From IMG/VR virus record IMGVR_UViG_2681813272_000013: a stretch of 8,987 bases of DNA. One strand, 5' to 3'. The number at the start of each line of letters is the position of its first letter. The first letter of the stretch is position 1. This DNA comes from a virus (lineage: Duplodnaviria > Heunggongvirae > Uroviricota > Caudoviricetes). Below, one piece after another: positions 5,089 to 6,613 of the stretch. Position numbers and translations under genes: made by a program. The notes under the pieces were generated by a model. The model was given only the letters and a program-made list of their open reading frames with translations, did not search any database and was not told the origin of the DNA.

Positions 5089-5093
5089 GGCAG

Positions 5094-5107
5094 TATGACT
5101 TTCCGTG
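5094..5107. repeat. Left subterminal inverted repeat of the IS (TATGACTTTCCGTG)
   Basis: Exact reverse complement of 6592-6605. Confidence 0.7.
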
Positions 5108-5214
5108 AGACAGATGCTGGCCAACGTGGGATATTTAACGCGGGTTAACATCGTTGTCAGAGCCGCATGGGTGAGCTGTTGCTACACCCCGGTATTTCCA
5201 CCACGGAGGCCAGC

Positions 5215-6342
5215 ATGAACAACAATAACACATTGTACGTCGGGTTAGATGTTCACAAAGAATCGATTACTGTCGCTTATGCTATCAATTCAGAACCTGT
5301 TGAACTGATGGGTAAAATTGGCACATCACCTACTGATATTCAGAATCTTTGTAAACGTCTCAGGTCAAAGTCATCGCAGGTCAGTATCGTTTATGAAGCG
5401 GGGCCCTGTGGTTATGGACTTTATCGTCGGCTGGTGAAATCCGGTTTTGACTGCATGGTCTGCGCCCCCTCACTTATCCCGAAAAAACCGGGGGAGCGGG
5501 TTAAAACCGATCGCCGTGATGCCATCAGACTTGTGCGTTCACTGCGTGCAGGAGATCTTTCTGCTGTCTACGTACCCGGCATTGAAGATGAGGCATTCCG
5601 GGATTTGGCCCGGGCATGGGCATCTGCCCGCGATGATTTACGGCATGCAAGGCAACGTCTGAAATCGTTTCTTCTGGTTCATGGGGTCCATTATGTCGGG
5701 CGAGCAGATTGGGGCCCTGCACACCGACGCTGGCTCAGCAAATACTCATTCGAAAGTCCCTGGCGACAATTAGCTTTTGACGAACACCGTCGTACAATAG
5801 AAGATCGGCAGGCACAATGTGAACGGCTGGAATCCGCCCTGAAGGAGGCCGTTACCGAATGGAGGCTGTATCCGGTAGTAGAGGCGCTGCAAGCCATGCG
5901 AGGGATTCAGTTTATTACTGCGGTTGGATTAATTTCTGAACTGGGTGATCTGACCCGTTTTGAACATCCACGACAACTGATGTCATGGTTTGGTATCACG
6001 CCATCAGAATATTCATCGGGTGGAAGCAGACATCAGGGCAGCATTACCAAAGCCGGAAACAGCTATGCCAGAAAGCTATTGGTCGAGGCAGCGTGGAGTT
6101 ACCGTCATCCGGCACGCATCAGTCCGGCAATACAAAAAAGGCAGGAAAATTTACCCCGCCCCGTCATTGACAGAGCATGGGATGCTCAACTCAGGCTTTG
6201 TAAGAGGTATCGAAAACTTCAGGCCAAAGGAAAGAATGTCAATATTACAATTGTTGCTGTTGCACGTGAGCTGGCGGGTTTTATCTGGGATATGGGCCGA
6301 ATAGCAATGTCTGTCGCACAACAACCACAATGTCACAAATAA
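5215..6342 (+). CDS. IS110-family transposase / recombinase (N-terminal DEDD RuvC-like domain, C-terminal IS116/IS110/IS902 domain)
   Basis: MNNNNTLYVGLDVHKESITVAYA... is the typical IS110-family N-terminus. The C-terminal FGITPSEYSSGGSRHQGSITKAGNSYARKLLVEAAW matches the family signature. GGAGG lies 5 nt before the ATG at 5215; the track start at 5167 is probably an upstream extension. Confidence 0.9.
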   Translation: MNNNNTLYVGLDVHKESITVAYAINSEPVELMGKIGTSPTDIQNLCKRLRSKSSQVSIVYEAGPCGYGLYRRLVKSGFDCMVCAPSLIPKKPGERVKTDRRDAIRLVRSLRAGDLSAVYVPGIEDEAFRDLARAWASARDDLRHARQRLKSFLLVHGVHYVGRADWGPAHRRWLSKYSFESPWRQLAFDEHRRTIEDRQAQCERLESALKEAVTEWRLYPVVEALQAMRGIQFITAVGLISELGDLTRFEHPRQLMSWFGITPSEYSSGGSRHQGSITKAGNSYARKLLVEAAWSYRHPARISPAIQKRQENLPRPVIDRAWDAQLRLCKRYRKLQAKGKNVNITIVAVARELAGFIWDMGRIAMSVAQQPQCHK

Positions 6343-6360
6343 AAAATGAGAATAACCAGT

Positions 6361-6545
6361 TCCCTGAAGGCGACGTAGCCCGGTACAAGAGTAACCCACG
6401 TTAGCGCTTGGCGACGGCGGAACAAAGCTGATTCGCGACGTAAGAAAGTGGCAGGCTCATATGACGGACCTCTGTAATGCGGTATCCAACCCGCGAATAT
6501 CAGCGTGATTCACCGTCGGATTTACTGCTACGTCGCCCTCAGGGA
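6361..6545 (+). ncRNA. Candidate IS110-family bridge RNA (seekRNA) in the 3' non-coding end of the IS
   Basis: Nested imperfect hairpin of about 185 nt: outer helix 6361-6378 / 6528-6545 (17 of 18 bp), helix 6412-6417 / 6513-6518, and helix 6427-6437 / 6492-6504 (11 bp with a 2-nt bulge). These leave a 33-nt internal loop and a 54-nt apical region. There is no plausible protein-coding frame here. Confidence 0.35.
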
Positions 6546-6591
6546 ATTAAACCTAAAAAGAAAATCGTCAAAATTAGAGATTCCGGTTTGA

Positions 6592-6605
6592 CACGGAAAG
6601 TCATA
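6592..6605. repeat. Right subterminal inverted repeat of the IS (CACGGAAAGTCATA)
   Basis: Exact reverse complement of 5094-5107, ending 8 bp inside the right IS boundary. It overlaps an outward-facing TTGACA at 6588-6593. Confidence 0.7.
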
Positions 6606-6613
6606 TCAGCGAA

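What the first reader, a model, noticed from the sequence alone, without database searches (positions are those of the whole stretch)
5089..6613. IS110-family element with 14-bp subterminal inverted repeats and an outward -35 hexamer at its right end
Seen: TATGACTTTCCGTG (5094-5107) and its exact reverse complement (6592-6605) bracket the recombinase gene. The right repeat ends 8 bp before the point where flanking methyltransferase sequence resumes. A consensus TTGACA (6588-6593) points outward 20 bp from the right end. The 5' non-coding part is short (about 125 bp) and the 3' part long (about 270 bp). Established: IS110-family elements lack classical terminal repeats, move through a circular intermediate, and in several members a promoter is assembled across the joined ends. 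Inference: an IS1111-group member whose circle junction could place TTGACA upstream of a -10-like TATGAC in the left end. The spacing depends on the exact ends, which I cannot fix from one copy.
Basis: partly seen in the sequence, partly recalled or inferred. Interest (0 to 1): 0.5.

Follow-up and report, generated by a model that had tools for sequence, protein, structure and literature searches.

The report
Known insertion sequence ISSso6, bridge RNA

Summary
The 14-bp inverted repeats (5094-5107 / 6592-6605) and TTGACA (6588-6593) are where stated.

The element is ISSso6. Its 375-aa recombinase (5215-6342) is 100% identical to the ISfinder protein, and copies that are at least 99.9% identical sit on Shigella and E. 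coli plasmids and E. coli chromosomes.

Two unoccupied sites fix the ends. The element is 1520 bp (5090-6609, give or take 2 nt because AG lies at both junctions), with no target duplication.

The target is GTAAG|CG, invariant or nearly so in 16 distinct junctions. This is the start of IS66-family terminal repeats; most copies whose neighbours were annotated abut IS66-family genes or sequences.

The main omission is that the 267-bp 3' non-coding part encodes a structured RNA (6358-6546). Two loop segments in it match the target on opposite strands. Across relatives these segments change together with each element's own flanks (0/20000 permutations). A third segment tracks the element's right end.

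The circle-junction promoter is plausible. TTGAC is invariant in 27 close relatives. With the true ends, however, the -10 is CAGTAT at 17 bp, not TATGAC at 20 bp.

This is ordinary, already-known biology. Low interest.

The parts
5090..6609 (+). ISSso6, 1520 bp. It can equally be written 5088-6607 or 5089-6608, because AG is present at both junctions. There is no target-site duplication.
   Evidence: Two unoccupied sites were compared with occupied ones. Upstream of nhaA the empty site reads CTGTAAGCGCTAACG (L012 against L006). At the tail-fibre-assembly stop it reads ACAATGTAAGCGAAAAAG (L014/L015 against the window). The same ends occur in 16 distinct junction pairs. Shigella plasmid copies match the query across its whole length, 5089-6609.
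5085..5089 (+). Left target half GTAAG, which includes the TAA stop of the tail-fibre-assembly gene fragment. AG at 5088-5089 is the shared 'core'.
   Evidence: GTAAG is invariant in 16/16 junctions.
5094..5107 (+). Left subterminal inverted repeat, TATGACTTTCCGTG.
   Evidence: The two arms co-vary across relatives.
5091..5096 (+). CAGTAT, the candidate -10 of a promoter that exists only when the two ends are joined in a circle.
   Evidence: It lies 17 bp after TTGACA in the reconstructed junction. Hexamers in the same position in distant relatives are CATAAT and CAATAT. Its role is inferred, not shown.
5215..6342 (+). DEDD/serine recombinase (transposase), 375 aa, preceded by GGAGG at 5205-5209.
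   Evidence: Pfam PF01548 and PF02371; NF033542 at 273.9 bits; 100% identical to the ISfinder ISSso6 protein. D12, E61, D99, D102 and S267-S268-G269 are invariant in 18 relatives.
6358..6546 (+). Structured non-coding RNA (bridge RNA / long seekRNA). It has a closing stem of 19 pairs (P1, 8 pairs, and P2, 11 pairs; 6360-6379 with 6527-6546) and inner helices P3 to P6.
   Evidence: Fold z-score is -5.4. In close relatives, 10 pairs show compensatory changes against 3.7 +/- 1.3 in shuffles. A covariance model finds the RNA immediately after the recombinase gene in 48-56%-identical relatives that were not in the training set, at 52-101 bits. In the 37-sequence alignment 35 of 46 pairs are compensatory.
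6399..6409 (+). Right-target guide CGUUAGCGCUU, on the 5' side of the target-binding internal loop. It is complementary to the top strand AAGCGCTAACG.
   Evidence: Exact 11-nt complement of the nhaA site. In relatives this segment follows each element's own right flank: 67/96 matches against 29.1 +/- 4.8, 0/20000 permutations.
6411..6436 (+). Hairpin P5, which separates the two target guides.
   Evidence: Compensatory pairs are seen, for example GCAA/UUGC changing to GCGA/UCGC in the window.
6438..6444 (+). Left-target guide ACGUAAG, on the 3' side of the loop. [quoted passage not shown]
   Evidence: It follows each relative's own left flank: 53/80 matches against 25.6 +/- 4.3, 0/20000 permutations.
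6496..6504 (+). Left-donor guide AAUAUCAG plus C6504. It has the same sense as the right end of the IS, CATATCAG, followed by the first flank base.
   Evidence: In distant relatives the RNA segment changes with the class of right end: ATCAG ends go with AUCAG, and GAGAG ends with GAGAG or CAGAG. The base after CAG equals the first flank base in 16/19 elements.
6472..6475 (+). Tentative right-donor guide CUGU, which would pair with GCAG at the left end. An alternative candidate is UACUG at 6523-6527.
   Evidence: The position is analogous to the right-target guide: 5' of hairpin P6, with the left-donor guide 3' of it. The homologous stretch matches the antisense of the left end in L085 (8/9) and L093 (7/9). 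This assignment is weak.
6588..6593 (+). TTGACA, an outward -35 overlapping the right repeat by 2 nt.
   Evidence: TTGAC is invariant in 27/27 close relatives, while the 30 nt upstream cannot be aligned. TTGAAA, TTGACT or TTGACA occupy the same place in most of the distant relatives examined.
6592..6605 (+). Right subterminal inverted repeat, CACGGAAAGTCATA.
6610..6614 (+). CGAAA, the remnant of the original right target flank. A later rearrangement joins it at 6614/6615 to the interior of a methyltransferase gene.
   Evidence: The unoccupied site continues CGAAAAAGAAAAACC. Methyltransferase homology starts at 6614/6615.

Best explanation
Positions 5090-6609 are an intact copy of ISSso6, an IS110-family element with IS1111-type layout.

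Shown here by sequence comparison:
- It is 1520 bp and is inserted without duplication into GTAAG|CG. At this locus that motif spans the stop codon of a tail-fibre-assembly gene fragment. Elsewhere it is most often the first bases of IS66-family terminal repeats.
- It encodes a DEDD/serine recombinase, followed by a roughly 190-nt structured RNA (6358-6546).
- An internal loop of that RNA carries two guides. [quoted passage not shown] ACGUAAG has the same sense as the left half, and so pairs with the bottom strand. The two overlap at AAG.
- A second, multi-branched region carries AAUAUCAG, which matches the element's own right end.

Inferred from the experimentally characterised relatives IS621, ISEc11, ISPa11 and ISKpn4:
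- The element excises as a circle.
- Joining the ends creates a promoter, TTGACA-17 bp-CAGTAT, that transcribes the recombinase gene and the RNA as one transcript. The RNA is then trimmed out.
- The RNA-recombinase complex pairs the circle junction with a GTAAGCG site and exchanges strands at the shared AG.

In the integrated copy, no promoter-like site precedes the gene inside the element.
For: Identity: the protein is 100% identical to ISfinder ISSso6. DNA at least 99.9% identical is annotated as ISSso6 in RefSeq.

Family: Pfam and NCBIfam assignments. Durrant et al. list ISSso6 as IS1111 group with the RNA in the right end.

Ends and target: two unoccupied sites and 16 junction pairs. GTAAG is 16/16, C and G are each 15/16, and the AAC at +5 to +7 specified by the guide is 12, 11 and 11 of 16. 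IS66-family repeats begin GTAAGCG (PMC12888890). Several copies abut IS66 tnpA or tnpC.

RNA: fold z-scores of -4.7 and -5.4. Compensatory pairs. An independent model detects the RNA in distant relatives.

Guides: exact matches. Guide and flank co-vary, 0/20000 permutations on each side. The right-end guide co-varies with the class of right end. Guide strands are as defined for IS621: the left guide pairs with the bottom strand and the right guide with the top (PMC11208160). Guide order is top-strand match first, as reported for IS1111-type seekRNAs (PMC11187229).

Promoter: the -35 is conserved. No promoter-like site lies in 5090-5214. An active junction promoter is documented for ISEc11 (PMC11187229).
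Against: Nothing about activity was measured. There are no circles, no RNA ends and no transposition data for ISSso6.

CAGTAT matches only 3 of 6 positions of TATAAT, although these include A at position 2 and T at position 6.

The right-donor guide is not securely identified; there are two weak candidates. One variable RNA stretch (6459-6464) is unexplained.

The recombinase is 375 aa and only 17-24.5% identical to core IS1111 proteins, so mechanistic transfer from ISEc11 rests on architecture rather than close homology. Sequence similarity to the solved IS621 protein is detectable only over residues 199-290 (E = 2e-5).

The alignment behind one search was fitted to the model's structure and leans towards it.
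Confidence: 0.9

Rival explanations
1. The element is not a true IS1111-group member. It belongs to a separate deep lineage of the IS110 family that shares the IS1111 layout: long subterminal repeats, the RNA downstream of the gene, and the top-strand guide first.
For: In Siddiquee et al.'s identity matrix, ISSso6 is 17-24.5% identical to 49 core IS1111 transposases. That is about the same as IS621, an IS110-type element, whereas ISEc11 and ISPa11 score 32-47%. The protein is 375 aa, outside the 330-350 aa given for IS1111 proteins. The terminal extensions are 4 nt on each side beyond the repeats, not the 7-nt left extension described for ISEc11.
Against: ISfinder, as used by Durrant et al., files it as IS1111 with the RNA in the right end. 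All the architectural criteria are met. This is a question of naming, not of mechanism.
Confidence: 0.3
2. TTGACA acts mainly as an outward promoter half that switches on neighbouring genes after insertion, not as part of a circle-junction promoter.
For: It points outward, 16 nt from the end. Such hybrid promoters are known for other insertion sequences (my own knowledge).
Against: At this locus the next gene is on the opposite strand, and 17 bp downstream lies GAAATC, which is not a -10. A matching -10-like hexamer at fixed spacing in the left end is conserved across relatives. The two roles are not mutually exclusive.
Confidence: 0.08
3. The 3' non-coding part is only a structured untranslated region or terminator, and target choice is made by the protein alone.
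For: No Rfam family matches it. No RNA data exist for ISSso6.
Against: Two loop segments follow each relative's own flanks, 0/20000 permutations each. There is no run of U after the stem. Homologous RNAs are essential and programmable in ISEc11 and IS621.
Confidence: 0.02

Closest known systems
ISSso6 (ISfinder; IS110 family, IS1111 group; first named from Shigella sonnei)
   Same: It is the same element. The transposase is 100% identical. Copies at least 99.9% identical occur on plasmids of S. sonnei, S. boydii, S. dysenteriae and S. flexneri and in E. coli.
   Different: Nothing of substance differs. This copy has lost its original right flank beyond 5 bp through a later rearrangement.
ISEc11, ISPa11 and ISKpn4 (IS1111-type elements with an experimentally shown seekRNA; Siddiquee et al. 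2024, PMC11187229)
   Same: All have subterminal inverted repeats, the long non-coding region after the gene, and an RNA whose top-strand match lies 5' of its bottom-strand match, with the two overlapping in the target. None makes a target duplication. ISEc11 has a documented junction promoter.
   Different: Core IS1111 proteins are only 17-24.5% identical to ISSso6's (ISEc11's own value lies outside the part of the matrix that was read). The ISSso6 protein is longer, 375 aa against 339 aa for ISEc11. The target differs: GTAAGCG, against GTGAAAATACTG for ISEc11. Terminal extensions are 4 nt. None of the experiments has been done for ISSso6.
IS621 and its bridge RNA (Durrant et al. 2024, PMC11208160; Hiraizumi et al. 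2024; PDB 8wt6)
   Same: Both have a DEDD plus serine recombinase. In both, the left guide pairs with the bottom strand and the right guide with the top strand, overlapping at a short core. Both have a second region that recognises the element's own ends. ISSso6's shared AG is the complement of IS621's CT core.
   Different: In IS621 the RNA is encoded in the left end with the left guide first. In ISSso6 it is in the right end with the right guide first, and the donor-binding part is a multi-branch loop rather than a simple internal loop. IS621 has only 2-3 bp subterminal repeats. Sequence similarity is detectable only over residues 199-290.
IS4321/IS5075 (which target Tn21-family terminal repeats) and ISEc21 (which targets the DDE codon region of IS3 elements)
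   Same: All are IS110-family elements whose preferred target lies inside another mobile element.
   Different: ISSso6's target is the GTAAGCG start of IS66-family terminal repeats. Look-alike sites elsewhere, such as nhaA upstream, a primase gene and a tail-fibre-assembly stop codon, are also used.

Membership tests
IS110 family (DEDD 'bridge' recombinase elements) | N-terminal RuvC-like DEDD domain (PF01548) and C-terminal PF02371 domain with the conserved G--P----SG serine motif | tested here: met
   PF01548 E = 2.6e-11 and PF02371 E = 8.2e-24. NF033542 scores 273.9 bits against a cut-off of 140. D12, E61, D99, D102 and GITPSEYSSG are conserved.
IS110 family (DEDD 'bridge' recombinase elements) | Sequence-specific insertion without classical terminal repeats or target duplication | tested here: met
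   Two unoccupied sites. GTAAG|CG is found in 16 junctions.
IS110 family (DEDD 'bridge' recombinase elements) | Circular double-stranded intermediate with a promoter across the joined ends | not testable with these tools
   Only the sequence is compatible with it: TTGACA-17 bp-CAGTAT in the reconstructed junction, with the -35 conserved.
IS1111 group | Subterminal inverted repeats of 7-17 bp | tested here: met
   A perfect 14-bp repeat, 4 nt from each end.
IS1111 group | The longer non-coding region, and the RNA, lie downstream of the recombinase gene | tested here: met
   125 bp on the left against 267 bp on the right. The RNA is at 6358-6546. Durrant's table lists it as 'RE, IS1111'.
IS1111 group | In the RNA, the top-strand target match lies 5' of the bottom-strand match | tested here: met
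   6399-6409 pairs with the top strand and precedes 6438-6444, which pairs with the bottom strand. The rule is stated in PMC11187229.
IS1111 group | Transposase related over its full length to that of IS1111, and 330-350 aa long | tested here: inconclusive
   It is 375 aa and 17-24.5% identical to 49 core IS1111 proteins in the published matrix, yet ISfinder and Durrant file it as IS1111. I built no phylogeny.
ISSso6 (ISfinder entry) | The same transposase and the same DNA | tested here: met
   375/375 aa are identical. The DNA is 100.0% identical to the copy on S. sonnei plasmid NZ_CP023646.1.
Bridge RNA / seekRNA | A structured RNA beside the recombinase gene, with two segments that pair with opposite strands of the target and overlap at the crossover | tested here: met
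Bridge RNA / seekRNA | A second loop that pairs with both halves of the donor (the joined ends) | tested here: inconclusive
   The left-donor guide is supported. The right-donor guide has only weak candidates.
Bridge RNA / seekRNA | The RNA binds the recombinase and is required for excision and insertion | not testable with these tools
   This has been shown only for ISEc11, ISPa11, ISKpn4, ISEc21 and IS621.
Rfam families | A match to a curated covariance model | tested here: not met
   No Rfam 15 family hits 5089-6609 at E <= 1.

The most novel reading that the evidence does not exclude
ISSso6 and its relatives, which I found mostly in Burkholderiales and Alphaproteobacteria, may form a lineage distinct from core IS1111, with a bridge RNA whose layout has not been described in detail. 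In that layout the right-target guide, a hairpin and the left-target guide sit in one internal loop. A candidate right-donor guide, a second hairpin and the left-donor guide sit in a multi-branch loop, and one position next to the left-donor guide follows the target rather than the donor. ISSso6 itself is specialised on the GTAAGCG tip of IS66-family elements. Because that site is nearly palindromic, it can also insert into the DNA that encodes its own right-target guide.
Probability: 0.45. Interest if true: 0.3.

Novelty: already known. Interest (0 to 1): 0.15.

Why it matters
For annotating this window, it settles three things. Positions 5090-6609 are a single, intact, named mobile element. 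The tail-fibre-assembly gene fragment on its left was a genuine GTAAGCG target. The truncated methyltransferase gene on its right results from a separate rearrangement 5 bp outside the element.

More generally, the guide map and the 37-sequence RNA alignment give a ready-made natural 'reprogramming series': many relatives with the same scaffold but different guides and targets. That could be useful to people engineering bridge recombinases. The principle itself was published in 2024, and ISSso6 is already listed there.

Tried and rejected
- Rfam search of the whole window: nothing in the element.
- I tried to fetch ISEc11 (NZ_CP053751.1) for a direct comparison of ends and junction promoter. 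The record is not in the collection. The ISEc11 Pjunc paper (PMC1483014) is not held.
- I first read the shared base at the junctions as a single G. Re-reading the unoccupied sites shows that AG is shared. Relatives with AG on the left and AA on the right (L022, L024, L030, L058) suggest the strictly shared core may be only the A. This could not be resolved without their unoccupied sites.
- GGCAG...UAUGAC in the RNA (6449-6465) looked like a copy of the left end. However, 6459-6464 varies among relatives whose left ends are constant, so I dropped it as a donor guide.
- The single-sequence minimum-energy fold pairs AUAUCAGC with GCUGAU. The consensus of relatives does not keep that helix.
- I looked for what the variable stretch 6459-6464 follows (flanks, repeats, neighbouring RNA positions) and found no rule.
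- I considered whether the deletion on the right was made by the element itself. The breakpoint lies 5 bp outside the IS and the joined sequence has no GTAAGCG-like site, so probably not.
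Full report
**The observation.** TATGACTTTCCGTG lies at 5094-5107 and its exact reverse complement at 6592-6605. TTGACA lies at 6588-6593. In 4900-6800 there are only two inverted pairs of at least 11 nt. One is this repeat. The other is a 20-nt stem inside the 3' non-coding part. 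The repeat is not a chance match. It is in the same place in every other copy examined. In relatives of 64-77% protein identity, the inner halves of the two arms change together.

**Identity.** The open reading frame 5167-6342 carries the two IS110-family domains. The biologically used start is ATG 5215, behind GGAGG, which gives 375 aa. That protein scores 273.9 bits on NCBIfam 'IS110 family RNA-guided transposase'. It is identical, 375 of 375 residues, to the ISfinder ISSso6 transposase printed in the supplement of Siddiquee et al. 2024. RefSeq annotates the same DNA as 'IS110-like element ISSso6 family transposase' in 24 E. coli genomes. Sixty-eight plasmid records match, 44 from Shigella and 18 from Escherichia. 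One S. sonnei plasmid copy is 100.0% identical. Durrant et al. 2024 list ISSso6 as IS1111 group with the bridge RNA predicted in the right end. A full-text search found no paper that studies ISSso6 itself.

**Ends and target.** Two unoccupied sites fix the boundaries.
- Upstream of nhaA, E. coli without the element reads CTGTAAGCGCTAACG. With it, the reads are CTGTAAG-GCAGTATGAC... and ...GTCATATCAG-CGCTAACG.
- At the window's own locus, E. coli strains without the element read ACAATGTAAGCGAAAAAGAAAAACC. The window reads ACAATGTAAG-[element]-CGAAA.

The insert is therefore 1520 bp: 5090-6609, or shifted by one or two bases because AG stands at both junctions. Nothing is duplicated. Over 16 distinct junction pairs, GTAAG is invariant. 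The following C and G are each 15/16. AAC at +5 to +7 is 12, 11 and 11 of 16. GTAAGCG is how IS66-family terminal repeats begin (PMC12888890), and many copies abut IS66 tnpA or tnpC.

**The right flank of this copy.** After CGAAA (6610-6614) the sequence jumps into the interior of a methyltransferase gene, about 150 codons in. The original flank continued towards a dinI-like gene. This is a later rearrangement 5 bp outside the element. It is not part of the insertion, and I see no sign that the element caused it.

The 267-nt stretch after the stop codon folds far better than shuffled sequence, with z-scores of -4.7 and -5.4. I fetched 80 loci that encode relatives of the recombinase. Twenty-six of them share the TATGAC repeat. 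Their non-coding regions align into a conserved scaffold with short variable patches.

The consensus structure has these features:
- a long closing stem, 6360-6379 with 6527-6546;
- helices P3 (6389-6392 with 6455-6458) and P4 (6396-6399 with 6448-6451);
- an internal loop whose two sides (6400-6410 and 6437-6447) are separated by hairpin P5 (6411-6436);
- a multi-branch region that contains hairpin P6 (6479-6482 with 6491-6494).

In the close set, 10 pairs show compensatory changes, against 3.7 +/- 1.3 in shuffles. A covariance model built from that set finds a full-length match directly after the recombinase gene in relatives of only 48-56% protein identity, none of which was in the training set (52-101 bits). 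In the resulting 37-sequence alignment, 35 of 46 pairs are compensatory and 95.3% of cells pair, against 73.3% in shuffles and about 40% in slid controls. That alignment was fitted to the model and leans towards it.

**The target guides.** CGTTAGCGCTT (6399-6409) is the exact reverse complement of AAGCGCTAACG in the nhaA site. ACGTAAG (6438-6444) has the same sense as the left half of the target. These are the two sides of the internal loop. In the relatives the same two patches differ, and each matches that element's own flanks. At fixed register, 67 of 96 right-flank positions match, against 29.1 +/- 4.8 when guides and flanks are paired at random. For left-flank positions the figures are 53 of 80 against 25.6 +/- 4.3. 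No shuffle in 20000 reached either observed value.

The strands agree with the IS621 definition: the left guide pairs with the bottom strand and the right guide with the top, overlapping at the core (PMC11208160). The order, top-strand match first, is the one Siddiquee et al. report for IS1111-type seekRNAs.

**The donor guides.** AAUAUCAG (6496-6503) has the same sense as the element's right end, CATATCAG. In distant relatives whose right end is ...CATGAGAG, the homologous RNA stretch reads AUGAGAG or AUCAGAG. Where the end is ...CATATCA(G/A), it reads AUAUCAG. The next RNA base (C6504) equals the first flank base after the core in 16 of 19 elements. I take this segment to be the left-donor guide.

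The right-donor guide is not secure. CUGU (6472-6475) sits where the analogy with the target loop predicts, and its homologues match the antisense of the left end in some distant relatives (8/9 and 7/9). UACUG (6523-6527) is an alternative. The patch 6459-6464 varies without any rule that I could find.

**The promoter.** Inside the integrated element, no promoter-like site precedes the gene. Joining the ends gives TTGACA-cggaaagtcatatcagg-CAGTAT, a 17-bp spacer. TTGAC is invariant in 27 of 27 close relatives, although the sequence just upstream cannot be aligned and the adjacent repeat positions vary. In most of the distant relatives examined, TTGAAA, TTGACT or TTGACA occupy the same place. 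The hexamers in the left end at 16-19 bp read CATAAT or CAATAT. A junction promoter is documented for ISEc11. For ISSso6 it remains an inference, and CAGTAT is a weak -10.

**Comparison with known elements and membership.** As ISSso6, the identification is exact. As an IS110-family element, every sequence-level criterion is met. As an IS1111-group member, the architectural criteria are met. These are a 14-bp subterminal repeat, the RNA downstream of the gene, and the guide order. The protein, however, is 375 aa and only 17-24.5% identical to the core IS1111 proteins in the published matrix. That is much the same distance as IS621. A separate lineage with the same layout therefore cannot be excluded. 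The solved IS621 protein is detectable only over residues 199-290.

**Verdict.** Its interpretation is supported, with corrections to the right end and to the -10, and with the addition of the guide RNA. This is a known, catalogued element that works in a way published in 2024. The target preference, the guide map and the self-insertion noted below are member-level details.

Noticed in passing
L096 (E. coli RMDEC465, NZ_CM177019.1 4285800-4291800), locus positions 370-2301; corresponds to window 6405-6609: An ISSso6 copy sits in a primase gene at GGTAAG|CGCTGAA. It is followed by two extra tandem copies of its own last 205 bp, each starting at the base after GTTAG in the DNA that encodes the right-target guide. 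The element seems to have inserted into its own guide-coding DNA, which resembles its near-palindromic target. Three further strains (VL40, VL7S7 and O121 strain 201805972) match with the same primase-gene flank (hits H2-H4); their repeat arrays were not inspected.
   Followed up: partly
window 6610-6615 and 6615-7066 (- strand): Five bases to the right of the IS, the original flank is replaced by the interior of a methyltransferase gene that lacks its last ~70 codons. A full-length paralogue (222 aa) lies at 4094-4762. The rearrangement does not use the IS end or a GTAAGCG-like site.
   Followed up: partly
window 4842-5045, 7146-7349, 2622-2701 and 647-836 (+ strand): Rfam 'IS009' matches (one above its gathering score) coincide with the 3' ends of repeated tail-fibre-assembly gene fragments. 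They look like coding sequence of a repeated prophage module rather than separate RNA genes.
   Followed up: no
window 3906-4085 (+), with a partial copy at 2728-2790: A full-length match to the Shigella small RNA CssrB (230 bits) lies between a tail-fibre-assembly fragment and the first methyltransferase gene. The equivalent stretch is missing from the second, IS-flanked module.
   Followed up: no
window 2945-3778 (- strand): An open reading frame with type III secretion leucine-rich repeats (IpaH-like N-terminal part). It appears truncated at 277 aa. Together with CssrB and ISSso6 it points to a Shigella or enteroinvasive E. coli chromosome.
   Followed up: no
window 7804-8376 (-) and 8412-8610 (-): A phage Rha regulator gene is followed by C4 antisense RNA, isrK and c4-a1b1 matches, which together form a P1/P7-type immunity module of a prophage.
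   Followed up: no
window 6459-6464 (RNA positions between P3 and the CGG junction): A six-base patch varies among close relatives (AUAUGA, AUGAGA, AUUGGG, AUGACA and others). It follows neither the flanks, nor the ends, nor any pairing partner that I tested.
   Followed up: partly
L022, L024, L026, L028, L030, L031, L052, L058 (relatives): These elements have AG at the left junction but AA at the right junction, and their right-target guides specify AA. The strictly shared crossover base may therefore be a single A, or core mismatches between donor and target may be tolerated.
   Followed up: partly
H98, Caballeronia grimmiae plasmid NZ_CP084277.1 55465-55656: Between ISSso6 and this distant host, only the RNA segment (window about 6358-6548) is similar enough for megablast to find (89% identity). 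At the DNA level the RNA scaffold is better conserved than the recombinase gene.
   Followed up: no
L103 (E. coli plasmid NZ_CP050866.1): An ISSso6 copy whose right junction reads ATATCAA|CCGAATGCC. The first bases of the adjacent IS66-type repeat (GCGTT) are missing, so this is another small deletion next to the right end.
   Followed up: no
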